Virus genome (UHGV): UHGV-1695514
Strand: one strand, 5' to 3'
Length of the DNA stretch: 18,900 bases
DNA from: a virus
This document shows, in pieces, positions 2,465-14,391 of this stretch; the first letter of the stretch is position 1, and the number at the start of each line of letters is the position of its first letter. A program made the position numbers and the translations under genes. Under the pieces are notes generated by a model. It made no database searches. It saw only the letters and a list, made by a program, of their open reading frames with translations, and had not been told where the DNA came from.

Positions 2465-2788
2465 ATGTCAAACGAGATGGCAGGCGTGACGCCAGAGCAG
2501 GTGGAGCGCATTGCCGCAATTGTGGCGCGAGAAGTCGTAGGAAAATTAAGTAAGGAGCTTCGAGATGATATTGGCCAGGAGGTCAACGATCAGCTGCGAA
2601 CCTACTTTGGTGATATGACTCCGGCGCAACATAGCATTCAGCATTCCAACCTGGACAAACTTCTTAATCGGCTCGACACGATTTCAAGCGGGTTCTTTGG
2701 AGGCATTATTTCCAAGATTACCTCGTTCCTGATCACCGTGCTGCTTTTGGGTTTGGCCGCTTATGGCGTGAAAAATGGACTGCAATAA
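2465..2788 (+). CDS. putative holin / lysis membrane protein with a single C-terminal transmembrane segment
   Basis: GGAGG at 2455-2459 with ATG at 2465 (alternative in-frame ATG at 2453 has no RBS). Hydrophilic N-terminal part, then hydrophobic ISKITSFLITVLLLGLAAYGV near the C-terminus. First gene of a cluster ending in a spanin pair. Confidence 0.5.
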   Translation: MSNEMAGVTPEQVERIAAIVAREVVGKLSKELRDDIGQEVNDQLRTYFGDMTPAQHSIQHSNLDKLLNRLDTISSGFFGGIISKITSFLITVLLLGLAAYGVKNGLQ

Positions 2789-2801
2789 CAGGAGAACAAG
2801 G

Positions 2802-3494
2802 ATGAGTACTCCAAGAGGCATTCGTAACAATAACCCTGGTAACCTGGATAAGGGGTCGCCGTGGCAAGGGCTAGTAAACAATCCGGCGGAACCGCGGTTC
2901 TGCACTTTTAAAGACCCCGTATGGGGGATTCGAGCACTGACAGTAACGCTCATCACCTACCATGATAAGCGCCGCGCAAAAGACGGTTCCAGCATCGATA
3001 CGATCCGCGAAGTCATCGAGCGTTGGGCGCCGCCACATGAAAACAACACGGCCGCCTATATCAATGAGGTATCTAAAGCCGTAGGCGTGACGCCGGACAT
3101 GATCATCGATCTGCATGACTACAATACTATGCGGCCGCTGGTGGAGGCGATCATTCGTCATGAGAACGGTCGTGGCCCGTTGAAAACACTCAACAGCTGG
3201 TATTCGGCCGAAGTTATTGACGAAGGTATGCGTCGCGCCGGCGTCGTTAAACCGGTAACTGCAGTGAAAGCGGTACCCGTCACGAAAGAAACAGCCGGCG
3301 CAACGGTGACTGCAGGTATCGGTATTGCGCAGCTGGCGGACGTAATGCCGCAGATCTCCGTTGCGATGGATAAGGCCCAGGGACATATCACCAGCGGGGA
3401 TACCGTTCGCATTATCTTCGGTATTGCGACCATTGTTGTCGCCGGCTTTATTGCCTGGGCGCAGATTCGTAAGCATCAGGCAGGAGTGGTGTAA
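2802..3494 (+). CDS. putative endolysin / cell-wall hydrolase (by position in the lysis cassette), with predicted C-terminal membrane helix
   Basis: AGGAG at 2791-2795 with ATG at 2802 (the listed ORF start at 2775 lacks an RBS). N-terminal conserved-looking IRNNNPGNL motif that I cannot assign to a lysozyme family by eye. C-terminal hydrophobic stretch VRIIFGIATIVVAGFIAWAQI. Lies between the holin-like gene and the spanins. Confidence 0.4.
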   Translation: MSTPRGIRNNNPGNLDKGSPWQGLVNNPAEPRFCTFKDPVWGIRALTVTLITYHDKRRAKDGSSIDTIREVIERWAPPHENNTAAYINEVSKAVGVTPDMIIDLHDYNTMRPLVEAIIRHENGRGPLKTLNSWYSAEVIDEGMRRAGVVKPVTAVKAVPVTKETAGATVTAGIGIAQLADVMPQISVAMDKAQGHITSGDTVRIIFGIATIVVAGFIAWAQIRKHQAGVV

Positions 3495-3496
3495 CC

Positions 3497-3748
3497 ATGA
3501 ACGGCAGCCTGTTTTCAAAGGTCAAATCGACCATCATGACTTTGGCTGCCGTCTTCTTTGTGCTCGTTGGGGCGTACACCTGGGGTGGACGCGCTGCCCG
3601 GCGGGCCATGGAGGAAAAGGCGCAGAGAGAAACCAACAAACGGCTTCAAGGCACAGTGGATGTGAAAAATGAGACGATTAATGAAGTCAGGACTAAGGAT
3701 GCTTCTGCCGTTCATCGCGAGCTTCGCGATAAGTGGATGCGTGATTAA
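3497..3748 (+). CDS. i-spanin (Rz-like inner-membrane spanin subunit)
   Basis: 83 aa; N-terminal TM helix (IMTLAAVFFVLVGAYTW) followed by a charged, helical periplasmic domain. Its 3' end is overlapped in the +1 frame by a lipoprotein gene. Confidence 0.75.
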   Translation: MNGSLFSKVKSTIMTLAAVFFVLVGAYTWGGRAARRAMEEKAQRETNKRLQGTVDVKNETINEVRTKDASAVHRELRDKWMRD

Positions 3749-3890
3749 ACCTCAGACCGTGGGCGTACAATTCTGCGATGGGGCAAACCCTATCTACATC
3801 AGCAAGGACGACGCCCTGACAGAAGAAACTGAGAGAGAAATCCTGATCCACAACACGCTGGGTGAAAGAATTTGTGATTGGGGGCGGTAG
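3669..3890 (+). CDS. o-spanin (Rz1-like outer-membrane lipoprotein), overlapping the 3' end of the i-spanin gene
   Basis: Signal peptide with lipobox AISGC (MRRLMKSGLRMLLPFIASFAISGC); short mature protein with additional Cys residues; overlapped architecture. Start could also be the in-frame ATG at 3681 or 3699. Confidence 0.7.
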   Translation: MRRLMKSGLRMLLPFIASFAISGCVIKPQTVGVQFCDGANPIYISKDDALTEETEREILIHNTLGERICDWGR

Positions 3891-3908
3891 CATTTTATGC
3901 CCCGCCTC

Positions 3909-3960
3909 AGAGGATACGCTGCGTTACACTACCTAAACTATGGCGTATCCTCTTTTCTTC
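3909..3960 (+). terminator. hairpin with 11-bp perfect stem followed by a T-rich tract; probable terminator of the lysis cassette
   Basis: AGAGGATACGC (3909-3919) pairs with GCGTATCCTCT (3943-3953), loop 23 nt, then TTTTCTTC. The loop is longer than in a textbook intrinsic terminator. Confidence 0.45.
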
Positions 3961-4019
3961 ACATCTGTCGTCAGAGCTTGATATTCACGGCATCTAACTG
4001 TGCTTCATTCAACCTCATG

Positions 4020-4078
4020 TTGAATGATCCTGCTTAATGATGTAGATTTGATATGACTACAGTCATAACGTGTAGTCA
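4020..4078 (+). promoter_or_regulatory. candidate sigma70-type promoter with a hairpin/operator overlapping the predicted transcription start
   Basis: TTGAAT (4020-4025), 17-bp spacer, TAGATT (4043-4048). Immediately downstream is the inverted repeat TGACTACA (4054-4061) / TGTAGTCA (4071-4078), and a second palindrome GCTACG-CATACT-CGTAGC at about 4084-4101. Confidence 0.3.
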
Positions 4079-4164
4079 CATTCAAGCTACGCATACTCGT
4101 AGCCTCTAAACCCCACAGGGGGTCGCCGCAACGACAGCATTGTCTCAACGGCTAAGGTGGAAAC

Positions 4165-4563
4165 ATGCATAACGCACTTAACTCATCACGTTCTATTCAA
4201 ACGATTAGAGACTGTACCAACATGATCGCATCGGTTCCTTTGCGTCATTGGGATGACTCGCTCCAAATCCGAGAAATGGGCACACCAGGTGAACTTAAGG
4301 ATCAGCGTTTCATCATTACACTGAAGAGTGACGTGGAAGCAGGTAGCTTTACTATCAAATTATTTGCTGAGTTGATGGTTCTGAACAACCGTTTGCGCTT
4401 CCTCGTGAAGCCCGAAAAACAGTTTCCAGAAGTCGTTTACTGCGAAAGGCAAATTTTTTCGGATATCGAGAGTGAAATTGCTACTTTTGTTAAGGACAAG
4501 TACAGTGTAGATGTTAGTCTTGTCCGTACAGATAAATCAATGGACATGCGGCTTGCAAACTAG
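4165..4563 (+). CDS. hypothetical protein (132 aa), first gene of a low-GC two-gene island
   Basis: ATG 4165 preceded by AAGGTGG (4153-4159). No recognisable motif. The stop TAG 4561-4563 directly abuts the ATG of the next gene. Confidence 0.7.
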   Translation: MHNALNSSRSIQTIRDCTNMIASVPLRHWDDSLQIREMGTPGELKDQRFIITLKSDVEAGSFTIKLFAELMVLNNRLRFLVKPEKQFPEVVYCERQIFSDIESEIATFVKDKYSVDVSLVRTDKSMDMRLAN

Positions 4564-5352
4564 ATGGCACCTTCACTAATCGCGGATTACAAAAAGGTAC
4601 TCTCAGATTTCCCAGATCATGATAAACGCGAAAAAATCCGAGTCGGCTATACGGTTGGCTCGGATTTTTCTGTTTTGCGCCTTACTGAGTGGGCGTTGAC
4701 GGGGTCAAGTTACCCATATTGCCTCACTGTATCTGTGGTAGGGGCGCCAGATAATGAGTGGTTGCAAGAAATTGCAATAGAAATGGATGCCTCTGATAAT
4801 GATGAAGAGGAAATCATTGGCTACATACGTGCTTTAGTCGGTGCTGAACCTGAAGATGATGATGGCATCCAGATCGCTAGATTTGTATACAGAGATTTTC
4901 TGTTTCGGTCACAACAAGGTCACCACAGCGGAGTGCAGATTAAAGGTGCTTTTGTTGATCCTTCCAAGGAAAAGAAAGGCCTTGCCCGCTTAGTATATGG
5001 CTTCCTCCTTAACTGGCACGAGCATATCATCAGCGATGACCATCAGACGGTTTATGGGGCTAAGATATGGGCCGTTGGGATGTTAAAAGTAGGTAGAGTG
5101 CAAGTCTACGATAACATAAAAAGTGATTTTGTAGATGTGCTTACTGAAGGCGGTATCGGTATAAATGGATTCAAGCCTTGGGATGCTATGATGCTCAAAG
5201 AAGCACAGCTAAAGCACTGGAACCCTATGGCGATTAGTATAGACCCATCATCGCAGATTCTAGCCATCATTTCAGCGTCTGACAGGCATCAGTATAATGG
5301 TGTTACTGTTTTTAACAGAGTCGTTAGACGAAGGCTCAGAGTAACGAGATAA
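4564..5352 (+). CDS. hypothetical protein (262 aa), second gene of the low-GC island
   Basis: ATG immediately follows the upstream stop (probably co-translated). Acidic stretch (DASDNDEEEI, EPEDDDG). No recognisable catalytic motif. Followed by an intrinsic terminator. Confidence 0.7.
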   Translation: MAPSLIADYKKVLSDFPDHDKREKIRVGYTVGSDFSVLRLTEWALTGSSYPYCLTVSVVGAPDNEWLQEIAIEMDASDNDEEEIIGYIRALVGAEPEDDDGIQIARFVYRDFLFRSQQGHHSGVQIKGAFVDPSKEKKGLARLVYGFLLNWHEHIISDDHQTVYGAKIWAVGMLKVGRVQVYDNIKSDFVDVLTEGGIGINGFKPWDAMMLKEAQLKHWNPMAISIDPSSQILAIISASDRHQYNGVTVFNRVVRRRLRVTR

Positions 5353-5373
5353 ACCCGCTGCGGCGGGTTTTTT
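5353..5373 (+). terminator. rho-independent terminator
   Basis: CCCGC-TGCG-GCGGG hairpin (5354-5367) followed by TTTTTT (5368-5373), directly after the stop at 5350-5352. Confidence 0.8.
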
Positions 5374-5456
5374 GTTGCCATCCTTTAATTAACTCCAAAG
5401 TACCTACCATTTCACCTTTACACCGCAGCCGTAGGCATTTAGGCTATATCGCATAT

Positions 5457-5474
5457 AAGAAAACAAGTTGTTTC
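5457..5474. promoter_or_regulatory. palindromic operator-like element AGAAAACAAGTTGTTTC upstream of parA
   Basis: AAACAA-G-TTGTTT palindrome at 5461-5473, ending 35 bp before the parA start. A near-identical element (AGAAAACAACTTGTTT) precedes the helicase gene. Confidence 0.45.
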
Positions 5475-5508
5475 ATACGACGATAAATCACACGTAGGGA
5501 TATCACGA

Positions 5509-6174
5509 ATGACCCAGATCATTGTGGTGGGCGGCACCAAGGGTGGCCCAGGCAAATCGACTGTTGCTCAGCAAATTGCAGCCTGTCTGAAAATCAAAAA
5601 GAAAAAGAAAGTCCAGATCACTGATATCGACATCCAGCGCACCACGACAGGGTGGTGTGAAGACCGCCGGCACAATGAAGAACTGGAGCTGATCCCGTTC
5701 GCCTATGTCCAGGATGACATCATCAAACACATCACTTCGCTTCGCGGCCGTTTCGATTACGTCGTCGTTGACGCTGGTGGTTTCGACTCCGAAATTCAGC
5801 GCCAGGCTATGCTGATGGCCAACGTGATCCTTATCCCGCTTCGCCCGAAACGTCGCGATCTGAAATCCTTGCGTGACATCGACCCCATCGTCGACAGCGT
5901 TAGCAGCGTGAATGACCAAATCAAAATCCGTGCTGTAATGAACCAGTGCCCGTCTCTGCCTTCCCAGGCTGCGCGCATTATCGCTGCAAAAGAAATTGTC
6001 GAAACCTTTGGCATCGAGGCGGTACCGGTGAATCTTTACAACCGCAACGTCTATGACGATGCCGAAGAGGCGGGCCGTTCCATCTTTGAGATGACCGGAG
6101 CCGAACGCGACAAAAAGGCTGAGGCCGAGATTGAAGCATTAGTAGAATACGTAATGACCTTGGAGGGTGAATAA
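5509..6174 (+). CDS. parA: ParA-family partition ATPase, small type Ib (ParF-like, no N-terminal HTH)
   Basis: Deviant Walker A GGTKGGPGKST near the N-terminus, Walker B-like FDYVVVDAGG, overall ParF-like layout, 221 aa. RBS TAGGGA 8 nt upstream. Stop overlaps the start of the next gene. Confidence 0.8.
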   Translation: MTQIIVVGGTKGGPGKSTVAQQIAACLKIKKKKKVQITDIDIQRTTTGWCEDRRHNEELELIPFAYVQDDIIKHITSLRGRFDYVVVDAGGFDSEIQRQAMLMANVILIPLRPKRRDLKSLRDIDPIVDSVSSVNDQIKIRAVMNQCPSLPSQAARIIAAKEIVETFGIEAVPVNLYNRNVYDDAEEAGRSIFEMTGAERDKKAEAEIEALVEYVMTLEGE

Positions 6175-6536
6175 TGTCCATGAAAATGGGTGATCTGGCA
6201 AAACGTCCGGCTGCGGAAGCTGCTGCGCCTAAAAGCAGCACCCCGATGCGCCAGCCTGTCCGTCCACAAGGCCGTCCAACACGTGGCAAAGAGAAAATCA
6301 AAAGCCGCACGATGTCTCTTGAAGACGAGTATTTCGAATTACTGGAGATGATGAAGTTCATCCCTCGCTTCGAGAAGTTCACCCGTTCTGATGTGATACG
6401 TGCAGCCATTTTCCATCTGGCAGAGAAGTCCCCGCAGGAAATAGAGGACATCGTAAAGATGAACGAGGCGATCACCGCAGCCGATGTGACGATGCGTACC
6501 GATGAAATCAAGCGTGAGCTGATGAAGAAAGGTTAA
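6174..6536 (+). CDS. small basic partition/centromere-binding partner (ParG-like, putative ribbon-helix-helix)
   Basis: ATG overlaps the parA stop (TAATG). Basic Pro/Arg-rich N-terminal tail, then an RHH-like segment (KSRTMSLEDEYFELLEMMKF...SDVIRAAIFHL). Position matches the second gene of type Ib par operons. Confidence 0.55.
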   Translation: MSMKMGDLAKRPAAEAAAPKSSTPMRQPVRPQGRPTRGKEKIKSRTMSLEDEYFELLEMMKFIPRFEKFTRSDVIRAAIFHLAEKSPQEIEDIVKMNEAITAADVTMRTDEIKRELMKKG

Positions 6537-6581
6537 ATAAGAGGCGTCGAAAGATGCCTTTAACTCAAAAGGACTTTGTTT

Positions 6582-7340
6582 GTGCTGTACAAATACGTAG
6601 GGCATGAAGACCCAAACGAATTAATCAAAATTCTTAAATTCTTCATCGAAGATGGAACCATCCGAGCCACCCGGCCACACGACTTCAATGATCCTGCCGA
6701 GTTCAAAGCCAAATTTAGTTTTGACGCCACGATCCAAGAGAAGCTTGTCCGATATCATGAGATGTGGCCTGGCAAAAGCGACGATGACGGTGAGAACTGG
6801 TTAAGAGGGCGAACCAAAAACGCCGAAGAGTTTGACGCCTATATGCTGCGCGGAAATCTGCTTTTGGATACTGGTGTGATATGCCTCACCAGAACTGACA
6901 CTAATTACCTGATGTGGTCGCATTACGCCAGCTCCCACTCTGGATTTTGCATAGGGTTTGATGACGCTATTGTGGAAGCGCTGGATGACCGACACACAGC
7001 GTTAAACGGTGACGTGGAGTACGTGAAATCGCCGCCTGAAGTGAACTTCTATACCGCTGATGTGTACGACATTGTCAGAGCCATCTTTCTGCACAAGGGT
7101 GAGAGCTGGAAGTACGAAGAAGAGTTCCGGATTATCTCTGAGCTGCCAGGGCTTAAGAAGTTGGACACCTCGCTCATCAAAGAGATTTCTATCGGATGCA
7201 AACCCTATCCAGAGCTGGAAAGTTTTGCCCGTGAACTGCTGGACAGCAATCTGGCCGTGTACAAAATGCTTTGCCCTACCGACTCGTACCAACTGAAGCG
7301 TGTGGAGCTGGACAAGAACCTTTCTTTTCAAGGTTACTAG
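6582..7340 (+). CDS. DUF2971-like protein of unknown function
   Basis: N-terminal LYKY motif, FNDP-AEF, and a central MWSHYA...GFCIGFD block resemble my recollection of the DUF2971 family. Start is ambiguous: GTG 6582 (AAGGA 9 nt upstream) or TTG 6576. Lower GC than flanking genes. Confidence 0.5.
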   Translation: MLYKYVGHEDPNELIKILKFFIEDGTIRATRPHDFNDPAEFKAKFSFDATIQEKLVRYHEMWPGKSDDDGENWLRGRTKNAEEFDAYMLRGNLLLDTGVICLTRTDTNYLMWSHYASSHSGFCIGFDDAIVEALDDRHTALNGDVEYVKSPPEVNFYTADVYDIVRAIFLHKGESWKYEEEFRIISELPGLKKLDTSLIKEISIGCKPYPELESFARELLDSNLAVYKMLCPTDSYQLKRVELDKNLSFQGY

Positions 7341-7361
7341 TTCTGGCAGCTTCAATTAAGA

Positions 7362-7427
7362 ACCTGCTTCTGTATATATAAATACTAAGTTACTTATTAT
7401 TATTTATACGGAAGCAGGTCTTTTTCT
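7362..7427 (+). terminator. 9-bp perfect stem enclosing a 40-nt AT-rich loop, followed by CTTTTTCT; terminator-like or regulatory hairpin
   Basis: ACCTGCTTC (7362-7370) pairs with GAAGCAGGT (7411-7419). The loop contains the palindrome TAAGTTACTTA (7386-7396). Confidence 0.4.
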
Positions 7428-7501
7428 ATGCCAACTTCCCAGACACATTCCCTTCCGTTTCCACTTCCAAAAAACATCTCCAGTCGCTATGATCTGTCAA
7501 A

Positions 7502-7519
7502 TAGTAAGTAAGTAGTTAC
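7502..7519. promoter_or_regulatory. TAGTAAGTAAGTAGTTAC motif; candidate operator/promoter element
   Basis: GTAAGTAAGTAGTTAC at 7504-7519, 15 bp upstream of the ATG at 7534. Its exact reverse complement occurs at 14320-14335 upstream of phoH. Confidence 0.45.
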
Positions 7520-7533
7520 CTATCGGTGAGGGC

Positions 7534-8259
7534 ATGAGCCAGATCTTTTTTGACACCATAAACAACGGCCAGTACGACTTCATGACAGAGTGGGACACGG
7601 TCGCCATGGACAAGTGGGTTGCGGAAAACATCGGTCTTTCACGATGCCAGGGGGAGGCTGAGCTCTTTGATACAAAGTGGTTTGACTATCGCGACATGCA
7701 CCCGCTGATGGCAACCTGTCTGTTCACCGAAGCCTATAAGCGCGCATACTCACAGATCATGCTGTCTCATGGCCGCGAGCATTTCGAGACGGCGCCATTC
7801 AGCACTGGTCTGAAACGCCTGCCTTACCAAGAGCTTTCGGCGGTGAACAAAACCTCTCTCTGGAAAGCTCGCCAGTTTGCAGATCGGTATTGCTGTTCTT
7901 ATGACTATTTTATATCAACTGTTCTCTCTGCAGCTGCACGCCGGCTCTGGGACAAATTACCTCGCCCTCAGCATCTTTGGCAGCCAGAACTGATTGAGAT
8001 CTTCGAAAGCAAACTCGCCAGTCGTGCGGGAACGCGTCTGGATGACTCTGTAGTGAGTTTTAAGCACTTAGGAGACATGCAGCATGACCCAATTCAGGAA
8101 CGTTACTTTGAATGGGTTCTGGAGCGTTTGAAGCACATCACCCGTGATAAGCGTATCCGCACCATCTTCTCTGCTGTCTGGTTGATGGAGCTGGTGCCTG
8201 AGCGCGTTATCTATGCCCATTACCCGGAAGAACTGGAAGAAGCACGGCGACTGTGTTGA
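7534..8259 (+). CDS. hypothetical protein (241 aa)
   Basis: Long ORF with uniform coding-like composition; no recognisable motif. Confidence 0.65.
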   Translation: MSQIFFDTINNGQYDFMTEWDTVAMDKWVAENIGLSRCQGEAELFDTKWFDYRDMHPLMATCLFTEAYKRAYSQIMLSHGREHFETAPFSTGLKRLPYQELSAVNKTSLWKARQFADRYCCSYDYFISTVLSAAARRLWDKLPRPQHLWQPELIEIFESKLASRAGTRLDDSVVSFKHLGDMQHDPIQERYFEWVLERLKHITRDKRIRTIFSAVWLMELVPERVIYAHYPEELEEARRLC

Positions 8260-8282
8260 TTGCCTGTTCCATATTTTTACGA

Positions 8283-8300
8283 TTAGAAAACAACTTGTTT
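8283..8300. promoter_or_regulatory. palindromic operator-like element AGAAAACAACTTGTTT upstream of the helicase gene
   Basis: AAACAA-C-TTGTTT palindrome at 8288-8300, 23 bp before the ATG at 8324. Matches the element upstream of parA at 17 of 18 positions. Confidence 0.45.
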
Positions 8301-8323
8301 AAGCACCAAAGGATATCAAACAC

Positions 8324-9664
8324 ATGACCGAACTTTGCCACACGGGACGAGGGTTGTCTGAAGAGTTCGACGACGACTTCCAGAATCGTCTGGCGGCGTA
8401 TTTTTGCCGCGATCATGAGTTTCTGACTCGTGCCGGCGATCTGGTTGCCCCCAACCAATTCTCCAATGCGGCGAACGCCATACTGGTGAACATGGTATCG
8501 GGCTATTTCAGAATGTATAAGAGCGCGCCGTCATCGGCGGCCATCCTCGATATGTTGAAGCGTGCTAAACGCGATAAGACGATCAGAGAAGAGATGTTCC
8601 CGGATGTTGTGGCGGCGTTTAAGCGGGTGCTCTCGGAAAAACTCTCTGATACGGCTTACATGGTCGACCAGGTCGCGACGTTCGCTAAAAGTGTAGCGTT
8701 CGACGATGCGTTGATTAAAGCGGCCGAGATGAAGGAGAAGGGCGACTTCCAGGGAGCGATGGCCATCATGGCCAAAGTGCAGCAGATCGGTTCTAACGAA
8801 GCGACGGGCATTTATGACTATTACGCCTCTGCAGCGGAACGTTACAAGGCCCGTGAATATGAAGCCTCTGATGATTACGTGCCGAACAGCATCACCACCG
8901 GTCTTCCGCTGCTGGATCGCATGCTTTATCAAAAAGGTTGGGCGAAACGTGAGATGGTGCTCTTCATGGGGTTTGCGAAATCAGGTAAATCGACAGCGAT
9001 GGGGGAGTTCTCCATTAACGCAACGCTGGCCGGCTACAACGTTTTGTATCTTTCTCTCGAAGTGCATACCTCGATTCTCTCCGATCGCTTCGATGCACGG
9101 CTGTCTGAAACGGAGATGTCAAAGCTGGTAGAGCAGCGTGACGACGTTCACCGGAAACTCGCGGAGCTTGGCGCGACGAAAGGGGTGGGGAATCTCTGGG
9201 TGGTTGAGCGCCCGTCAGGAAGCATGTCGCCTGCAGATTTGGATCGTATGCTCAATAGCATGAAAGCGAATGGCATGATCCCGGATATGGTGGTGGTCGA
9301 CTATGCGGACTTGATGCGTGCCAGTTACGACCTCCGTGACGACCGGGCGAACATCCGTTCTATCTACACCGATCTGCGTGCTCTCTACGATAAGCACAAC
9401 GTTGCAGGAATCACGGCATCCCAGACCAACCGTGAAGGTGGCTCATCCGAAGTGGCCACCATGATGCACGCCGCAGACAATATCGAAAAAGTCCGTATCG
9501 CCGACTTAGTCATCACTATCAACAAGACTGAGGAGGAAGAAGCCAAAGGTGAAGCACGACTCTATTTTGCTGGTTCCCGTAACCAGAAGGGCGGGGTGAG
9601 TATTCGCGTTAAGCAGAATCTCGAACAGATGCGCTTCATCGAGCGGATCATGGAAGTTCTTTAA
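8324..9664 (+). CDS. DnaB-like replicative DNA helicase (RecA-fold ATPase)
   Basis: Walker A GFAKSGKST, Walker B-like MVVVDYADLM, helicase-like C-terminal region (ITASQTNREG); 446 aa; adjacent to a primase gene. Confidence 0.75.
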   Translation: MTELCHTGRGLSEEFDDDFQNRLAAYFCRDHEFLTRAGDLVAPNQFSNAANAILVNMVSGYFRMYKSAPSSAAILDMLKRAKRDKTIREEMFPDVVAAFKRVLSEKLSDTAYMVDQVATFAKSVAFDDALIKAAEMKEKGDFQGAMAIMAKVQQIGSNEATGIYDYYASAAERYKAREYEASDDYVPNSITTGLPLLDRMLYQKGWAKREMVLFMGFAKSGKSTAMGEFSINATLAGYNVLYLSLEVHTSILSDRFDARLSETEMSKLVEQRDDVHRKLAELGATKGVGNLWVVERPSGSMSPADLDRMLNSMKANGMIPDMVVVDYADLMRASYDLRDDRANIRSIYTDLRALYDKHNVAGITASQTNREGGSSEVATMMHAADNIEKVRIADLVITINKTEEEEAKGEARLYFAGSRNQKGGVSIRVKQNLEQMRFIERIMEVL

Positions 9665-9746: not shown

Positions 9747-9815
9747 ATGAGCCTTTATGGTATTCAAAAAACGCGGCTTATCAAGATATTGCCGTTTAAA
9801 AACTGCGGTAAATGA
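9747..9815 (+). CDS. possible 22-codon upstream ORF translationally coupled to the primase gene
   Basis: AAGGA (9735-9739) 7 nt before ATG 9747; encodes MSLYGIQKTRLIKILPFKNCGK. Its TGA (9813-9815) overlaps the primase ATG (9812-9814), which itself has no obvious RBS. Confidence 0.25.
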   Translation: MSLYGIQKTRLIKILPFKNCGK

Positions 9816-10933
9816 CAATGAGTGACCTCAAAGAGTTACTGTCCGAGCTGGATTTCGAACAATGGCTGGATATGGAAGGCATCATCTATCGTCGCGGCGG
9901 TGTAAGCGCCCGCGGCCGCGAAGTGAATATCAAAGAATGTCCGGTATGTGGAAGCACAAACTGGAAGGTCTATTTCAACCTGACCAACAACGTCGGGAAA
10001 TGCTTCGCCGGCGATCACCCAGAAGAAATTCAATTTAATAAGCTGGTTTTCCTCAAACACTACAGCGGTAAGTCTCGTCGTGCCTTTGAGGAGTACGTAC
10101 ATAACGCACTCCTGTCTCAAGGTTGGGCGCCAAAAAAAGAAGAGGTTGTGCTGGCCAGTGCTGTGGAACTTGAAGGCCCGGTGGCTTTACCGCGGCATTA
10201 TGAACTGCCAATTGACGGTCGGCTGCCGGACTATCTTGTTGAGCGGAACATTACCCCGGAGCTGGCCAAATATTTTGACCTGCGTTACTGCGTCGAGGGA
10301 AAACATGCTTATGTCGACCCATATACCGATCAGGTAAAAGGGCAGGCATTCGATATGCGCATCCTGATACCGATTTACGATCTGAATGGGGTGATGAAGA
10401 CATTCCAGGGGCGTGACGTCACCGGCGCAGCAGAACGTCGATATCTCTTTCCAATGCAGCTGCCGGCATCCGGGAGGTTTCTCTACAATGGACATAACGC
10501 AGTTGGTAAGCAAACAGTCGTCGTCTGTGAGGGGGCTTTCGATGTCATGGGGGTTAAGCGCGCCATATTCGACGAGGAAACACTCCGGGACTACGTAGAG
10601 CCCATTGGCACGTTCGGGATGCATCTGTCCGGAAACACGACTGTAGACGCAGAAGACCAGCTGGGCGCGTTTCTGTCGTTAAAGGCTGATGGTCTGCGAA
10701 ACGTCATCATGATGTGGGATAGCGAGAAGCAAGCGATCCGAAACACAATGGCGGCCGCCAGACGATTAGCCAGTATAGGGTTAAATGTGAAAATAGCCTG
10801 TCTTGGAGAAGAAGGGCTAGATCCCGGGGAGGCCACCCAGGAACAAATTCTCAAAGCCTACTATCGTGCAAAACCCTACTCTAAGCAACTGGAGCTGCAG
10901 AGCAAGGTTCTCGGTATTAGTGCATTTAATTAG
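9812..10933 (+). CDS. DNA primase (zinc-ribbon plus TOPRIM, DnaG/T7 gp4-primase-like)
   Basis: Zinc-binding-type CPVCGS...(14)...C-x4-H near the N-terminus; TOPRIM signature VVCEGAFDVMG (E-G-x-x-D) and a downstream acidic MWDSE motif; located next to the helicase gene. Confidence 0.7.
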   Translation: MTMSDLKELLSELDFEQWLDMEGIIYRRGGVSARGREVNIKECPVCGSTNWKVYFNLTNNVGKCFAGDHPEEIQFNKLVFLKHYSGKSRRAFEEYVHNALLSQGWAPKKEEVVLASAVELEGPVALPRHYELPIDGRLPDYLVERNITPELAKYFDLRYCVEGKHAYVDPYTDQVKGQAFDMRILIPIYDLNGVMKTFQGRDVTGAAERRYLFPMQLPASGRFLYNGHNAVGKQTVVVCEGAFDVMGVKRAIFDEETLRDYVEPIGTFGMHLSGNTTVDAEDQLGAFLSLKADGLRNVIMMWDSEKQAIRNTMAAARRLASIGLNVKIACLGEEGLDPGEATQEQILKAYYRAKPYSKQLELQSKVLGISAFN

Positions 10934-11053
10934 TTCGACTCATGGCTGTAGTTCCATATCCGTGTCGGAAATACCATAATTTTTTTATGGATGTAGGTAT
11001 CTACTTAAATATTTTAATGTAATAAATAACACTTTGGTTATGGAGGACATCAC

Positions 11054-11842
11054 ATGAAAAAAGGTATCGAACAGGCAGTTTTAGAGATGATCAAGAAGTC
11101 AGGCGTAGAGCTTGGCGAGGGAGAACTGGAGAGCATCATCGATGCCTCATTCAACACGGCATCAGAGCACATATCGAATGCGCTATCCTGCATTCCTCTC
11201 AAAGAAGGGGCGACACATACGTCGGTGTTAGTGTGGTACGCAAAGACGCCTGAAATGCCCGGTACTGTTCAAAAGCGTGTAGCTCTGGTTGCGTTCATCG
11301 TCCCGTCGTTTGAGACCGGCATTGGGCCAGTCGCGCGTTTTGGCGCCTGGTATGACGACAAAATCATCTTCTCAAACTGCTACCAGATGGAAAGCAGGGA
11401 AATGCTTGAGAATAGCGTTAACGTGACTCTAAGAGCCGTAGAAAGCAAATGCGAGACAGTAGGAGAGGCTTTCGTCAGCGTCATGACTTCTCCCGATGTT
11501 GAAAGGCGCCATGTAGATCTGGTAGCACCACCAGGCTTGTTGGAAATGATTGTCTCTGGAGATTACAACAAGGCTATAGCGCGTGTTCGTGAGCTGGACT
11601 ATGGGCGTATCTGCGACTTGTGTCGTAGTGATCTGGATTTAATCAATGTGATCGTTGAGGCTGGCCGCGTCTGTGATGGGGTGTTGGCACAATACGCAAG
11701 TAAGATCAGTCGTTTGGCCAATGAAATGCCTATGCTGATTCAGGAAGCCAAATCCCACGCCGTTCATGCCGCAAACGACCTGCTAACCCCTTATCGATAC
11801 GAAGCCGCAAGTGACAAGATGACCGGCTGGGCCACCTGGTAA
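11054..11842 (+). CDS. hypothetical protein (262 aa)
   Basis: GGAGGA (11042-11047) 6 nt before ATG 11054; coding-like composition; no recognisable motif. Upstream AT-rich region contains a GTAGGTATCTACTTAAAT motif. Confidence 0.7.
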   Translation: MKKGIEQAVLEMIKKSGVELGEGELESIIDASFNTASEHISNALSCIPLKEGATHTSVLVWYAKTPEMPGTVQKRVALVAFIVPSFETGIGPVARFGAWYDDKIIFSNCYQMESREMLENSVNVTLRAVESKCETVGEAFVSVMTSPDVERRHVDLVAPPGLLEMIVSGDYNKAIARVRELDYGRICDLCRSDLDLINVIVEAGRVCDGVLAQYASKISRLANEMPMLIQEAKSHAVHAANDLLTPYRYEAASDKMTGWATW

Positions 11843-11887
11843 GCCGTGACTATGTACTGTGTCCCCGTACAGAGTTATTTAAACTGA

Positions 11888-11904
11888 TTAGTAAGTAAGT
11901 ACAA
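11888..11904. promoter_or_regulatory. TAGTAAGTAAGTACAAG motif; candidate operator/promoter element
   Basis: Direct GTAA repeats (GTAAGTAAGTA at 11890-11900), 21 bp upstream of the ATG at 11922; same family as the 7502 and 14320 motifs. Confidence 0.4.
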
Positions 11905-11921
11905 GATTATCATTTAGAGAA

Positions 11922-12389
11922 ATGGCTACCAAAACTGACTTATCAAAAATCCCTTCGATCTCTGGACTCAACGGCTACTCGCTGCGTTGCCCGGAAGTGA
12001 AGCTTAACGGACATGACTCGTACTGCAGCTACACCGTCTGTCAGCACACGATCCTTGCCTTCAAAGAGAAGCGACTGCCGGCGTCATCGTTCACCTCCTG
12101 TGCGAACGCCATTTCGGCCGGAAAATGCCAGGCGCTGGAAATGATGGTGGAGGAAATCCGGCAAGGTGAGTCGCTGTATTTCGTCGATATGCCGGCGCTC
12201 ATTGAAGAGGTGGAGGAAAGAAACCGAACAGCGAGAACCCTGCAGCCGAAGAGAGGCAGTGCATCTATCTACAGTGGAATTAAAGGGAAGCGCCAATCTT
12301 CGACCGTTGCTGAAACTGGCAGACTGCCCGATGCCAGCGAGATTTATTCAGAACTTATCAAAGAAACCTTAAAGGAGAAGACCGACTAA
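11922..12389 (+). CDS. hypothetical Cys-containing protein (155 aa)
   Basis: First gene of a run of four genes with overlapping start/stop codons; five Cys in the N-terminal half (possible metal site); no recognisable family. Confidence 0.6.
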   Translation: MATKTDLSKIPSISGLNGYSLRCPEVKLNGHDSYCSYTVCQHTILAFKEKRLPASSFTSCANAISAGKCQALEMMVEEIRQGESLYFVDMPALIEEVEERNRTARTLQPKRGSASIYSGIKGKRQSSTVAETGRLPDASEIYSELIKETLKEKTD

Positions 12390-12637
12390 TGGAGAAGCTG
12401 ATCGCGCTTAAACATAAGCTGGACGCCATTAAAGCAATGGGAACGAACGCCAAGAAAGAGGCGCTGGCCAGTATGAATGACTTCGAACAAAGAATGGTGT
12501 CACTCATGCTGAACCCATTTGTTCGTTTCGGGGTGAAGAAATACAAAGTGGCCGATCCACTTAGCAAGTCCGTACCCAGTGATCAGAAGGCGATAGAGCT
12601 GCTGGAGCAACTGATTGAAGCAGGAGAATACTCATGA
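12389..12637 (+). CDS. hypothetical protein (82 aa)
   Basis: ATG overlaps the upstream stop (TAATG); helical, charged composition. Confidence 0.55.
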   Translation: MEKLIALKHKLDAIKAMGTNAKKEALASMNDFEQRMVSLMLNPFVRFGVKKYKVADPLSKSVPSDQKAIELLEQLIEAGEYS

Positions 12638-12786
12638 TTCCATACATCATATTGACTTTTTCTGGAGGCGTCGCCCTTGGCTTCATCATCTGTCATGACT
12701 TGATCAAGCAGGAACTGAAGACCAAAACACTACGTATCGGTAAGCGGGTATATCGCGTCGTTCACGAGACAGGGGTATCAAAATGA
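12634..12786 (+). CDS. possible small membrane protein (50 aa), below the ORF-track length cut-off
   Basis: ATG 12634 overlaps the stop of the upstream gene (ATGA). Encodes MIPYIILTFSGGVALGFIICHDL... with one N-terminal TM helix. Its stop (12784-12786) overlaps the ATG of the next gene (12783). Confidence 0.35.
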   Translation: MIPYIILTFSGGVALGFIICHDLIKQELKTKTLRIGKRVYRVVHETGVSK

Positions 12787-13082
12787 GCAATCTAACCTCG
12801 TTTGACTGGTGGATAGGCTTGTACTTTGTGGCTTCTGGTGTCGCAGTAGCTTTTACGATTGGCCAGTCCCTGGTAAAGCTACTGCTTTTAAGATTCGCCA
12901 ATCGCAAGCGTATCGATGACACGCTTTGGTGCCTTGGATCTCTACTTGAACAGCGTTACGGCGAGCTGAAGGAAGGTGCAACCCTTTGCATAAAGGCAAA
13001 ACGTTTCACGGCCACAATCCAACGGACGCAGGATGAGAAGCCAGTACTGATCAAAAAAGGAGCAAGCGAACGCATGAAATAA
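12783..13082 (+). CDS. hypothetical small membrane protein (99 aa)
   Basis: N-terminal hydrophobic helix (WWIGLYFVASGVAVAFTIGQSLV), then a basic tail; last gene of the overlapping run. Confidence 0.55.
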   Translation: MSNLTSFDWWIGLYFVASGVAVAFTIGQSLVKLLLLRFANRKRIDDTLWCLGSLLEQRYGELKEGATLCIKAKRFTATIQRTQDEKPVLIKKGASERMK

Positions 13083-13108
13083 TAGGTAAGTGTTTACTTA
13101 TTAAGTTG
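13083..13108. promoter_or_regulatory. GGTAAGTGTTTACTTATTAAG motif (TAAGT-N4-ACTTA inverted half-sites)
   Basis: Same half-sites as the 2387 and 7386 palindromes; lies at the start of the long non-coding tRNA region. Confidence 0.35.
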
Positions 13109-13472
13109 ATATAAATATGATTGACTTGTTTTCGTTGAGACGCGACTGTTTGAACGTTTAAAGATAACTGCAAACGACAATCAGTATCTGGCAGTAGCCT
13201 AAAAAGCCAAACACCAGCGAGGTCAGTTTCCAGCCTCGTCACCGAAATGGGACACACTAAGCGAGTGTGATTGCAAAACGCAGGTAGGGCATCTGGTTAA
13301 CCAGTGCCCTTACCGATGAGGTAACAGAATGGGCGGTTGGGTTTTATGTCCAACACATCCCGGCTCCCAAAGGCCCGACCGTCTATCCTGTTACGTCATT
13401 TCTGTTACTTATGTCGTTTAGTTTTGGGTTAAAAATGGCGACGTAACCCGGCTGGTTAGGTGAGCCAGCACG

Positions 13473-13566
13473 CAACGTTGAGACCACTGGTTTTTGCATC
13501 ACAGAGGCAGAGCCGGCAGACATGTAGGGCCAAGTACATTAATCCGTCCCAGTGGTCTCAACGTTG
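13473..13566. repeat. 18-bp perfect inverted repeat enclosing a 58-nt loop (structured RNA or DNA hairpin)
   Basis: CAACGTTGAGACCACTGG (13473-13490) and its exact reverse complement CCAGTGGTCTCAACGTTG (13549-13566). Confidence 0.7.
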
Positions 13567-13809
13567 TGGTCACGGATTCATTATCCTTCTGGTTATAGCC
13601 ATTGTTGTCACTGCCCCGTGGCCACAACGATTAAATGATTCCATACATCTAATTAGATCTGAATGAAAACTCTCCTCAGCCCTCGGAGAGTATTTGAAGA
13701 TCTTGGCTTGTAAGCGTTTGGTGAACACGTAAAGCACAAGTGGCAGGAAACGGTAGGACTGCTGCGAACGACACCGGTGAATCGACAGCGGCTGACGGTG
13801 TCAACCTTA

Positions 13810-13884
13810 GATGGTGTAGCTCAGTGGTAGAGCGGTTGACTGTTAATCAGCTGGTCGGTGGTTCGAATCCCCCCACCATCGCCA
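13810..13884 (+). tRNA. tRNA-Asn (anticodon GTT)
   Basis: Manual cloverleaf: 7-bp acceptor GATGGTG/CACCATC, U8-A9, D-arm GCTC-AGTGGTA-GAGC, anticodon arm GTTGA-CTGTTAA-TCAGC (anticodon at 13842-13844), T-loop TTCGAAT, discriminator G and encoded CCA (13882-13884). One U-C mismatch in the T-stem. Confidence 0.7.
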
Positions 13885-13973
13885 CAACGGTAAGGGTATT
13901 TGGACGACAGCAAGGAAGGCGCGCTCTTTGGCTGTTCGCGACGGATCTGATTCCCTGAATGCCCTTACCGTTG
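13883..13973. repeat. 14-bp perfect inverted repeat enclosing a 63-nt loop, starting at the 3' end of tRNA-Asn
   Basis: ACCAACGGTAAGGG-type arm at 13883-13896 pairs with 13960-13973 (CCCTTACCGTTGTG); the loop contains further short complementary segments. Confidence 0.65.
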
Positions 13974-14041
13974 TGATGAATTGCAGCTCGTTGAAGCAAC
14001 CAGAAGATAAGCATCTGGCGTCACAACGAACGGAGGATAGA

Positions 14042-14128
14042 GGGCATGGCGCCCAAGCGGTCTTGAAAACCGTCCCATTGCGAAAGCGATGATGGTTCGA
14101 TTCCATTATCCTCCGCCAACACAGCGTT
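14042..14128 (+). tRNA. tRNA-Ser (anticodon TGA), class II with long variable arm
   Basis: 7-bp acceptor GGAGGAT/ATCCTCC, anticodon arm GCGGT-CTTGAAA-ACCGT (anticodon at 14074-14076), variable arm with GAAA loop, T-loop TTCGATT, discriminator G and encoded CCA (14126-14128); 87 nt. The D-arm is atypical in my hand fold. Confidence 0.65.
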
Positions 14129-14129
14129 G

Positions 14130-14210
14130 AGCGGTTTGGTTTTGTTTTTCTTATCGAAAAGACTCCGCCTGTCACCATGGCCAGACCGCTCAACGCTGTG
14201 ATAGACATTA
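14130..14210. repeat. 16-bp perfect inverted repeat enclosing a 49-nt loop, starting 2 nt after tRNA-Ser
   Basis: CACAGCGTTGAGCGGT (14130-14145) pairs with ACCGCTCAACGCTGTG (14195-14210). Confidence 0.7.
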
Positions 14211-14273
14211 CGGCAGACGTTCTTTAACCATAGCTTCTAGCATCTTAGCAACACTTTTTTCAGCGCAAAATCC

Positions 14274-14297
14274 AAAGGGGCTTCGGCCCCTTTTCTT
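14274..14297 (+). terminator. rho-independent terminator
   Basis: AAAGGGGC-TTCG-GCCCCTTTT hairpin with a following T-tract; closes the tRNA region. Confidence 0.7.
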
Positions 14298-14319
14298 GCA
14301 TAAACGCCCTTGTCGTTAT

Positions 14320-14335
14320 GTAACTACTTACTTAC
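14320..14335. promoter_or_regulatory. GTAACTACTTACTTAC, exact reverse complement of the 7504-7519 motif
   Basis: 16-nt exact inverted match to GTAAGTAAGTAGTTAC, located 56 bp upstream of the phoH start. Confidence 0.45.
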
Positions 14336-14391
14336 TTTTGTGTTAACTTTTAGGTATAGTTCGTCTGGTTACTCACTTGAAAGGACTCAAT

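What the first reader, a model, noticed from the sequence alone, without database searches (positions are those of the whole stretch)
11054..13082. Five genes of unknown function between primase and the tRNA region, four with overlapping start and stop codons
An unknown 262-aa gene is followed by four genes (155, 82, about 50 and 99 aa) joined by ATGA/TAATG overlaps, implying tight translational coupling and fixed stoichiometry. Two encode small single-pass membrane proteins and one is Cys-rich. The 50-aa gene is below the ORF-track cut-off and would be missed by standard annotation. Coupled small membrane proteins in phages are frequent exclusion or host-modulation factors.
Basis: seen in the sequence. 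Interest (0 to 1): 0.4.

Follow-up and report, generated by a model that had tools for sequence, protein, structure and literature searches.

The report
Replication-module genes with a ligase deletion scar
The five open reading frames are real, but one of them (82 aa) is what remains of a phage DNA ligase gene after a 1.4-kb deletion, and the other four are conserved genes of unknown function at the end of the replication module of a common Klebsiella phage-plasmid, so the block is largely ordinary.

Summary
Five same-strand ORFs lie at the stated coordinates with TAATG/ATGA/ATGA overlaps. The window is an SSU5-supergroup phage-plasmid of Klebsiella, 95-99% identical to about 315 IncFIB plasmids of about 110 kb.

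The interpretation needs correcting. Intact relatives (pJN2-26, SSU5, Cyrano, Y. pestis pMT1) have the chain p155, 440-aa ATP-dependent DNA ligase, p59 (membrane), p71, p50 (membrane), p99 (membrane). The window lost 1,449 bp (483 codons) between two 13-bp direct repeats (AGAGCTGCTGGAG). This fused ligase codons 1-73 in frame to the last 9 codons of p71, producing the "82-aa gene". The catalytic domains, p59 and most of p71 are gone.

About 108 of 311 plasmids carry this junction. At least four other independent deletions also hit the ligase, so roughly half of these plasmids lack it.

p262, p155, p50 and p99 are under purifying selection (dN/dS about 0.1-0.2). The 50-aa gene is annotated in several relatives.

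p155, with four invariant Cys, sits directly upstream of the ligase in 33 of 33 distant viral contigs. It therefore looks like a replication or ligase accessory gene, not an exclusion factor. The function of p50 and p99 remains unknown.

The parts
9812..10933 (+). DNA primase (context: upstream border of the block)
   Evidence: Pfam DNAG_N/Toprim_2 hits; annotated as primase in relatives.
11054..11842 (+). p262: conserved gene of unknown function in the replication module, found only in SSU5-supergroup phage-plasmids
11922..12389 (+). p155: four-Cys protein (C23, C40, C60, C69 invariant), a disordered basic linker and a conserved C-terminal helix; the conserved upstream partner gene of the phage ligase
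   Evidence: phrog_5055 E=2.5e-87 and distant phrog_4558. 223 representative relatives. Invariant Cys. Directly upstream of the ATP-dependent ligase in ZY21, BUCTxx99 and 33 of 33 evaluable IMG/VR loci. dN/dS 0.08-0.11. AF2 model poor (pLDDT 46).
12389..12637 (+). Chimeric 82-aa ORF: ligase remnant fused in frame to the 3' end of p71 (a deletion scar, not an ancestral gene)
   Evidence: 97% identity over 75 aa to the ligase N-terminus of L016, 81% to the SSU5 ligase. The last 16 aa align with the p71 C-terminus (14 identical). No adenylation or OB domain. BLAST breakpoints.
12389..12594 (+). Ligase-only part of the remnant (codons 1-68)
   Evidence: Collinear with L001 4332-4537 and L016 2836-3041.
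12595..12607 (+). Deletion junction: the single remaining copy of the 13-bp direct repeat AGAGCTGCTGGAG
   Evidence: In the closest intact relative, L016, the repeat is perfect (13/13, 18/19 with flank). It occurs once in the ligase and once in p71, 1,449 bp apart. Three-way alignment.
12608..12637 (+). 3' end of p71 (last 9 codons plus stop), carrying the AGGAG Shine-Dalgarno sequence and the ATGA overlap of p50
   Evidence: Identical to L001 6000-6029; SD context.
12634..12786 (+). p50: small single-pass membrane protein, probable paralogue of the deleted p59
   Evidence: phrog_6302 E=8e-34. 74-96% identity across four lineages, dN/dS 0.09-0.22. hhalign against p59: probability 82%, E=1e-5. 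Hydrophobic N-terminus, KD 1.85. Annotated as SSU5_047, CYRAN_38, pJN226_0096 and WP_002225462.
12783..13082 (+). p99: single-pass membrane protein with a basic C-terminal domain
   Evidence: phrog_4507 E=3e-49. dN/dS 0.08-0.13. KD about 1.65. ATGA overlap with p50 conserved in all five lineages. Carries the spurious name 'C-type natriuretic protein' in SSU5 and PGAP records.
13810..13884 (+). tRNA-Asn (context: downstream border)
   Evidence: ARAGORN; Rfam tRNA 67 bits.
14032..14118 (+). tRNA-Ser (context)
   Evidence: ARAGORN.
14377..15168 (+). PhoH-like ATPase (context: far border of the plastic ligase-PhoH interval)
   Evidence: Pfam PhoH E=2e-75; PMC9600943 names the ligase-PhoH interval as the ARG insertion locus.

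Best explanation
The block is the 3' end of the lytic replication module of an SSU5-supergroup (pKpn-type) Klebsiella phage-plasmid: helicase, primase, p262, p155, ligase, then small genes.

Shown: the ancestral arrangement is p262, then a chain with overlapping stops and starts: p155, a 440-aa ATP-dependent DNA ligase, p59, p71, p50 and p99. In this window a 1,449-bp (483-codon) deletion between two 13-bp direct repeats removed ligase codons 74-440 (all catalytic motifs), all of p59 and p71 codons 1-62. What remains is an in-frame ligase(1-73)::p71(63-71) chimera of 82 aa. It still ends in the p71 stop, which overlaps the p50 start.

Inferred: the deletion arose by replication slippage or short-homology recombination. 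It is tolerated because the host NAD-dependent LigA can seal nicks and because plasmid-mode maintenance does not need the phage ligase. p155 is a metal-binding accessory or adaptor of the ligase or replisome. p50 and p99 are lineage-specific small inner-membrane proteins translated from the same mRNA, and their function is not identified.
For: Breakpoints and frame: BLAST of the window against pJN2-26 gives window 10994-12613 matching L001 2941-4556 and 12595-13400 matching 5987-6780. The perfect 13-bp repeat lies 1,449 bp apart in the closest intact relative, L016.

Identity of the remnant: 97% over 75 aa to the L016 ligase and 81% to the SSU5 ligase. The C-terminal 16 aa align with p71, 14 identical. 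phrog_114 E=1e-10. The intact protein has PF01068 at residues 161-342, which is absent here.

Polarity (loss, not gain): the ligase is present in SSU5, Cyrano, pMT1, ZY21 and BUCTxx99, and in 33 of 33 evaluable IMG/VR loci.

Population: 311-315 plasmids carry the block. About 108 have this junction and 159 Klebsiella records have the ligase segment. Other independent deletions are B (44-aa in-frame fusion, about 45 records), C (about 8 records), D (ligase-PhoH fusion) and E.

Other genes are real: dN/dS 0.08-0.22, and p262 and p155 are intact in 12 of 12 Klebsiella loci whatever the ligase state.

p155-ligase linkage: the two genes are adjacent or overlapping in three divergent phage groups.
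Against: No expression or activity data exist, so nothing shows that the 82-aa chimera is non-functional. The allele is common and in frame, which is also compatible with a retained role.

The p155-ligase link rests on synteny within one broad phage lineage (all loci share the same primase), so it may reflect conserved module order and not a physical partnership. p155 also stays intact after ligase loss, so it cannot depend solely on the phage ligase.

The structure model of p155 is poor (pLDDT 46) and metal binding is inferred only from four invariant Cys. Host-ligase compensation is argued from T4 and T7 precedent (general knowledge), not tested here. Whether the 108 records with junction A share a single origin was not determined.
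Confidence: 0.85

Rival explanations
1. One reading: five independent genes, in which the coupled small membrane proteins (p50 and p99, with the 82-aa product) form a fixed-stoichiometry superinfection-exclusion or host-modulation module.
For: p50 and p99 are single-pass membrane proteins with conserved ATGA overlaps. They are confined to the SSU5 lineage and absent downstream of the ligase in distant relatives. They border the element's plastic locus (PMC9600943). In L002, L011 and L013 they are replaced by a different membrane-protein cassette, which is typical of accessory or conflict genes. A Klebsiella SSU5-like plasmid was reported to reduce phage and plasmid uptake, though the gene responsible is unknown (PMC8969562).
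Against: There are no hits to PADLOC, Pfam or NCBIfam. The 82-aa ORF is a ligase remnant. p50 and p99 are long-conserved, with dN/dS about 0.1 across Salmonella, E. coli, Yersinia and Klebsiella elements, and show no sign of rapid diversification. Their GC content (0.45-0.48) is close to the window mean of 0.50. No functional test is available.
Confidence: 0.15
2. The 82-aa chimera is a neofunctionalised gene. Under this reading the isolated N-terminal segment of the ligase acts as a DNA-binding or regulatory peptide, or it is kept so that ribosomes are delivered to the p50 start.
For: The allele is frequent (about 108 of 311 records), is in frame, and keeps its start codon and the ATGA overlap. 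The second most common allele (B) is also in frame. PHROG 21758 groups similar N-terminal ligase fragments.
Against: The independent alleles keep very different lengths of the ligase N-terminus (139, 73, 55, 30 and 25 codons). Two of the five are out of frame (C and E). Three of five in frame does not differ significantly from the 1 in 3 expected by chance. p50 has its own strong AGGAG Shine-Dalgarno sequence 7 nt upstream. The fragment covers less than half of the roughly 160-aa pre-catalytic region.
Confidence: 0.07
3. Reverse polarity: the short form is ancestral, and the ligase-p59-p71 segment was inserted into an 82-aa gene in some relatives.
For: The junction is flanked by a direct repeat, which could in principle be a target duplication.
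Against: The ligase is in every outgroup at the same position. The first 75 residues of the 82-aa ORF are collinear with the N-terminus of those ligases at 81-97% identity. Four other deletion alleles have different left ends.
Confidence: 0.02
4. The deletion is an assembly artefact: a collapse between short repeats.
For: None beyond the presence of a short repeat.
Against: A 13-bp repeat is far too short to collapse an assembly. The identical junction is found in about 108 independently assembled complete plasmids and in one phage record.
Confidence: 0.01

Closest known systems
Replication-module block of Klebsiella phage-plasmid pJN2-26 (MZ779062; pJN226_0091-0097) and of Salmonella phage SSU5 (SSU5_042-048)
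   Same: Same gene order, strand and overlaps. The window is 96% nt identical to pJN2-26 over the shared parts, and p262, p155, p50 and p99 are 52-82% aa identical to their SSU5 counterparts.
   Different: Those elements have the intact 440-aa ligase, p59 and p71. The window has the 1,449-bp deletion.
Klebsiella phage vB_KpnS_p4727 (PQ492289) and about 108 Klebsiella IncFIB plasmids of about 110 kb (e.g. NZ_CP084833)
   Same: Identical deletion junction and the same five ORFs at 98-99% nt identity.
   Different: Only point differences. In these records the remnant is annotated as 'hypothetical protein' or not at all.
ATP-dependent DNA ligases of phages (PF01068 / phrog_114; T7 gene 1.3 and T4 gene 30 as the classical cases)
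   Same: The first 73 codons of the 82-aa ORF are the N-terminus of such a ligase. General knowledge: phage ligases can be dispensable when the host ligase is sufficient, which would explain why the loss is tolerated.
   Different: The adenylation domain (KxDG) and OB domain are absent, so the ORF is a remnant and not an enzyme.
Deletions between short direct repeats (replication slippage or RecA-independent short-homology recombination)
   Same: A perfect 13-bp repeat flanks the lost segment and one copy is retained. Other alleles show 4-7-bp microhomologies (GGCG, GTGGCCG).
   Different: Nothing unusual. Three of the five alleles have right ends within 12 bp of each other at the end of p71, and this clustering is unexplained.
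phrog_5055 / phrog_4558 proteins of Nickievirus (Pseudomonas phage ZY21 S21ZY_054) and Stenotrophomonas phage BUCTxx99 (WPH68509)
   Same: Homologous four-Cys N-terminal domain and conserved C-terminal helix. Same position between the primase and an overlapping ATP-dependent ligase.
   Different: Only 25-38% identity. The relatives are longer (180-230 aa) and many have an extra C-terminal motif. In the window the partner ligase is gone.

Membership tests
ATP-dependent DNA ligase (PF01068 / phrog_114), tested on the 82-aa ORF | Nucleotidyltransferase (adenylation) domain with the motif I lysine (KxDG) | tested here: not met
   No Pfam hit in the 82-aa ORF. In the intact homologue PF01068 covers residues 161-342, which lie inside the deleted segment.
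ATP-dependent DNA ligase (PF01068 / phrog_114), tested on the 82-aa ORF | C-terminal OB-fold domain | tested here: not met
   The OB hits sit at residues 364-423 of the intact protein, a region deleted in the window.
ATP-dependent DNA ligase (PF01068 / phrog_114), tested on the 82-aa ORF | Sequence homology to the family's N-terminal region | tested here: met
   73 of 75 residues identical to the L016 ligase and 61 of 75 to the SSU5 ligase; phrog_114 E=1e-10. The ORF is therefore a remnant of a family member, not a member.
SSU5-supergroup phage-plasmid (pKpn-type) replication module | Synteny: DnaB-like helicase, primase, p262, p155, ligase, small genes, tRNA, PhoH | tested here: met
   The window shows the same order apart from the deleted segment, matching pJN2-26, SSU5, Cyrano and pMT1.
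SSU5-supergroup phage-plasmid (pKpn-type) replication module | High nucleotide identity to Klebsiella IncFIB phage-plasmids of about 110 kb | tested here: met
   315 PLSDB records at 90-99% identity, 313 of them Klebsiella; 5 phage records. Group names come from PMC7969092.
phrog_5055 / phrog_4558 (p155 family) | Full-length profile match and the four invariant cysteines | tested here: met
   E=2.5e-87 over residues 1-155. C23, C40, C60 and C69 are invariant in 38 diverse sequences.
phrog_5055 / phrog_4558 (p155 family) | Position immediately upstream of an ATP-dependent ligase | tested here: inconclusive
   True in 33 of 33 evaluable IMG/VR loci and in ZY21 and BUCTxx99. In the window p155 is followed only by the ligase remnant.
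Known anti-phage defence or superinfection-exclusion proteins | Profile match to a described defence or exclusion family | tested here: not met
   PADLOC gave no hit below E=0.02 for any of the five ORFs, p59 or p71. Pfam and NCBIfam gave nothing above their cut-offs.
Known anti-phage defence or superinfection-exclusion proteins | Protective phenotype on expression | not testable with these tools
   Needs plating assays.
Translationally coupled operon | Stop/start overlaps conserved across diverged relatives | tested here: met
   The p50/p99 ATGA is present in all five lineages. p71/p50 is ATGA, or a 1-nt overlap in SSU5. p155/ligase overlaps by 1 or 4 nt in Klebsiella, Cyrano and ZY21 but has a 34-nt gap in SSU5 and pMT1.
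Translationally coupled operon | Downstream translation depends on upstream translation | not testable with these tools
   Each downstream gene has its own SD (AGGAG for p50, AGGGG for p99). Two of the five deletion alleles break the upstream frame, so obligatory coupling is not implied.

The most novel reading that the evidence does not exclude
p155 (phrog_5055/4558) is an unrecognised metal-binding accessory factor of phage ATP-dependent DNA ligases or of the replisome. It would use its four-Cys domain and its conserved C-terminal helix to tether the ligase to DNA or to other replication proteins in a large group of siphophages and phage-plasmids of about 105-113 kb. Its survival in every ligase-less Klebsiella allele would then mean that it also works with host LigA or has a second role.
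Probability: 0.3. Interest if true: 0.5.

Novelty: new member of a known kind. Interest (0 to 1): 0.3.

Why it matters
Annotation: an ORF labelled 'hypothetical protein' in a hundred or so Klebsiella plasmid records is a ligase pseudogene fragment and should not be counted as a gene family.

Phage-plasmid biology: roughly half of the sequenced Klebsiella SSU5-like elements have lost their own DNA ligase, and with it p59 and p71, through at least five independent deletions. Either the enzyme is dispensable in this host or many of these elements are drifting towards plasmid-only life. This bears on whether these carriers of resistance genes still spread as viruses.

Lead for experiments: the strict p155-ligase pairing across distant phages gives a concrete, testable handle on one widespread protein family of unknown function.

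Tried and rejected
1. Selection for reading-frame preservation. The idea was that deletions are kept in frame to maintain translational coupling into p50. It was rejected because only 3 of 5 independent alleles are in frame (A, B, D in; C, E out).

4. Homology between p262 and the gene at the equivalent position in ZY21 (257 aa): hhalign found none.

5. Paralogy of p50 with p99, and of p59 with the 62-aa gene after the ZY21 ligase: not supported. p50 against p59 is moderately supported.

6. Rfam and promoter/terminator scans of 10800-14400 found only the tRNAs and no convincing signal inside the block.

7. Junction-specific counts for alleles B and E were confounded, because the search tool joins nearby pieces. 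Only approximate numbers are given.

8. A search of viral contigs with the broad p155 alignment failed for lack of a conserved stretch. A subgroup alignment worked.

9. Literature: none of the phage-plasmid papers checked for the word mentions ligase loss or these ORFs.
Full report
OBSERVATION

The ORF list and the sequence confirm five + strand ORFs:
- 11054-11842 (262 aa, called p262 here)
- 11922-12389 (155 aa, p155)
- 12389-12637 (82 aa)
- 12634-12786 (50 aa, p50)
- 12783-13082 (99 aa, p99)

The last four are joined by TAATG, ATGA and ATGA. Upstream lie a DnaB-like helicase and a primase. Downstream lie tRNA-Asn, tRNA-Ser and PhoH. Overlaps of 1 or 4 nt also occur elsewhere in the window, so they are normal phage gene packing and not a special signal.

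WHAT THE ELEMENT IS

The block is 96-98% identical to five Klebsiella phage records. It is 90-99% identical to 315 PLSDB plasmids, 313 of them Klebsiella, mostly non-mobilizable and about 110 kb; those examined in detail are typed IncFIB. More distant relatives are Salmonella phage SSU5, E. coli phage Cyrano and the Yersinia pestis pMT plasmid. This is the SSU5 supergroup of phage-plasmids, whose Klebsiella group is called pKpn (PMC7969092).

THE 82-aa ORF IS A DELETION SCAR

In the annotated relative pJN2-26, p155 is followed, with overlapping stops and starts, by:
- a 440-aa ATP-dependent DNA ligase (PF01068 at residues 161-342, plus OB domain)
- a 59-aa membrane protein (p59)
- a 71-aa protein (p71; weak winged-helix hits only)
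- p50
- p99

BLAST of the window against this locus gives two collinear pieces that overlap by 19 nt and skip about 1.45 kb. The three-way alignment shows the crossover. In the closest intact relative (NZ_CP097672, locus L016), the 13-mer AGAGCTGCTGGAG occurs once in the ligase and once near the end of p71. The match is 18 of 19 with flank, and the two copies lie 1,449 bp apart, which is 483 codons. The window keeps one copy, at 12595-12607.

The resulting ORF is made up as follows:
- Residues 1-68 come from the ligase only.
- Residues 69-73 (IELLE) are encoded by the repeat.
- Residues 74-82 (QLIEAGEYS) come from p71 only.

BLASTP confirms this. The ORF matches the L016 ligase at 73 of 75 residues and the SSU5 ligase at 61 of 75. 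Its last 16 residues align with the p71 tail, 14 of them identical. It also hits the PHROG ligase family at E=1e-10. All catalytic parts of the ligase, all of p59 and codons 1-62 of p71 are gone. The ATGA at 12634 is the old p71 stop/p50 start.

POLARITY AND POPULATION

The ligase is at this position in every outgroup examined: SSU5, Cyrano, pMT1, Pseudomonas phage ZY21 and Stenotrophomonas phage BUCTxx99. It is also there in all 33 IMG/VR loci that extend far enough. The short form is therefore derived.

A query spanning the junction finds 311 plasmid records, 108 of which carry this junction in one piece. 159 Klebsiella records carry the ligase segment.

Other loci reveal independent deletions with different left ends:
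- B: L003, L010 and L012. A 44-aa in-frame fusion, in about 45 records (minus).
- C: L008. Ligase joined out of frame to the p59 3' end through GTGGCCG, in about 8 records.
- D: L009. An in-frame fusion of ligase residues 1-139 to the PhoH C-terminus, which removes everything in between.
- E: L011. Out of frame, with GGCG microhomology.

B cannot derive from A, because it retains p71-side sequence that A lacks. E most simply arises from the intact form by GGCG microhomology, but descent from A by a junction without microhomology is not excluded. Roughly half of the sequenced Klebsiella elements therefore lack a functional phage ligase.

I tested whether deletions are selected to stay in frame, which would be evidence for functional coupling into p50. 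Only 3 of 5 are in frame, so the idea is not supported.

The right ends of A, B and E fall within 12 bp of each other, just upstream of the p50 Shine-Dalgarno sequence. I cannot explain this clustering.

THE OTHER FOUR GENES

All four are real genes. Between Klebsiella, Salmonella, E. coli and Yersinia lineages, where dS is near or beyond saturation, dN/dS is as follows:
- p155: 0.08-0.11
- p50: 0.09-0.22
- p99: 0.08-0.13
- the ligase itself: 0.02-0.04

p262 keeps 36-52% aa identity over its full length. Each gene has its own PHROG of unknown function. None has a Pfam, NCBIfam or PADLOC match.

p50 is annotated in pJN2-26, SSU5, Cyrano, pMT1 and some PGAP records, so it is not systematically missed. 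It is absent from some gene tables.

p262. The family is confined to SSU5-like elements. A confident AF2 model (pLDDT 87) has no convincing structural neighbour. Its function stays unknown.

p155. An exhaustive profile search finds 223 representative relatives, all in phrog_5055/4558. They share four invariant cysteines (C23, C40, C60, C69), a disordered basic or proline-rich linker, and a conserved short C-terminal helix.
- In ZY21 the homologue overlaps the ligase start by ATGA. In BUCTxx99 it overlaps a PF01068 ligase by 11 nt.
- In 33 of 33 evaluable IMG/VR contigs the order is primase, a gene of about 250 aa, the p155 homologue, then the ligase.
- This conserved pairing, at 25-38% protein identity, is the basis for my inference that p155 is a replication or ligase accessory protein, probably metal-binding.
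- It remains an inference. The structure model is poor. All these phages belong to one broad lineage. p155 also stays intact in all eight ligase-less Klebsiella loci examined, so it cannot serve only the phage ligase.

p50, p59 and p99. p50 and the deleted p59 look like paralogues: an N-terminal transmembrane helix followed by a G(K/R)R(V/I)YR(V/I) motif, with hhalign probability 82% and E=1e-5. p99 has one transmembrane helix and a basic C-terminal domain.
- These small genes are absent downstream of the ligase in distant relatives, which carry other small genes and a guanylate-kinase-like gene instead.
- In some Klebsiella elements the C-terminal half of p50 and all of p99 are replaced by a different membrane-anchored protein.
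- They border the ligase-PhoH interval. Pfeifer et al. report this as the single locus where resistance genes insert in SSU5-like elements (PMC9600943). In pMT1 the caf1 capsule operon follows the p99 homologue directly.
- An accessory, host-interaction or exclusion role for p50 and p99 is therefore possible but has no positive evidence.

MECHANISM (shown and inferred)

Shown:
- the ancestral six-gene chain
- the repeat-flanked 1,449-bp in-frame deletion
- loss of all ligase catalytic motifs
- recurrence of ligase loss
- purifying selection on the four remaining genes

Inferred:
- The deletion arose by slippage or short-homology recombination.
- The loss is tolerated because host LigA substitutes (by analogy with T7 gene 1.3 and T4 gene 30, general knowledge) and because plasmid-mode replication does not need the phage ligase.
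- The remnant is probably still translated, since its start, SD and frame are intact, and ribosomes finishing it terminate on the p50 start. p50 and p99 nevertheless have their own SD sequences.

Two further data points:
- One ligase-less element is deposited as a phage from lake water (vB_KpnS_p4727, marked 'UNVERIFIED'). This hints that virion formation survives the loss.
- One Klebsiella SSU5-like plasmid was reported not to be inducible (PMC8969562). Its allele is unknown.

VERDICT

The block is an ordinary, well-populated set of conserved hypothetical genes plus a gene remnant. The useful new points are:
- re-identifying the 82-aa ORF as a ligase scar
- the high frequency and recurrence of ligase loss in Klebsiella phage-plasmids
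- the strict p155-ligase synteny, as a lead to the function of p155

Interest is 0.3. In kind, it is a new member of a known kind.

Noticed in passing
window 10934-11053; L001 1546-2712: pJN2-26 and several plasmids carry a reverse-strand 388-aa hypothetical gene (pJN226_0090) between the primase and p262. The window and vB_KpnS_p4727 have only a 120-bp AT-rich spacer there (GC 0.33). This is a second presence/absence polymorphism next to the block.
   Followed up: partly
L009 (NZ_CP144133) 2776-3855: A large deletion fuses ligase residues 1-139 in frame to the C-terminal part of PhoH, giving a 359-aa ORF. It removes p59, p71, p50, p99 and the tRNA region.
   Followed up: partly
L002 5655-5777; L013 4095-; one search hits H76-H80: In several plasmids with an intact ligase, p59 has a 57-bp in-frame deletion that removes its transmembrane segment (40 aa instead of 59). 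In L013 an IS3 element sits just after it. The ligase-p59-p71 stretch appears to be under relaxed constraint in Klebsiella.
   Followed up: partly
L002 5973-6540; also L011 and L013: An alternative cassette replaces the C-terminal half of p50 and all of p99. It encodes a 138-aa protein with a C-terminal hydrophobic segment. p50 is left as a 71-aa variant that shares only its first 25 residues.
   Followed up: partly
window 12783-13082 and homologues (SSU5_048, several PGAP records): p99 homologues carry the product name 'C-type natriuretic protein'. This is almost certainly a spurious annotation that has propagated through databases.
   Followed up: no
L007 (Y. pestis pMT) 2968-9365: In pMT1 the p262 homologue is truncated next to IS100. 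The F1 capsule operon (caf1R, caf1M, caf1A) begins about 500 bp downstream of the p99 homologue. This is the same interval that PMC9600943 reports as the sole resistance-gene insertion locus of SSU5-like phage-plasmids.
   Followed up: partly
L005 (Cyrano) 5089-5268: An unannotated p59 homologue (59 aa, ATGA overlap with the ligase stop) is present in phage Cyrano.
   Followed up: yes
L014 4114-4887; IMG/VR loci L017-L050, roughly 3260-4000: Distant relatives have a gene of about 250 aa between the primase and the p155 homologue, the slot that p262 occupies. The ZY21 copy shows no detectable sequence similarity to p262 (hhalign). This could be a structural analogue or a non-orthologous replacement.
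   Followed up: partly
window 13083-13809 and 13885-14031: A 727-bp stretch without a convincing ORF precedes tRNA-Asn, with one sigma-70-like site at 13093-13121. Cyrano has Asn-Thr-Ser tRNAs, whereas the window has only Asn and Ser, separated by 147 bp. Rfam scores the Ser tRNA as tRNA-Sec-like, below the gathering threshold.
   Followed up: no
junction region: L001 5976-5997, window 12595-12607: Deletion alleles A, B and E have different left ends, but their right ends lie within about 12 bp of each other, just upstream of the p50 Shine-Dalgarno sequence. The cause (a mechanistic hotspot, or selection to remove p71 while keeping p50 expression) was not resolved.
   Followed up: partly
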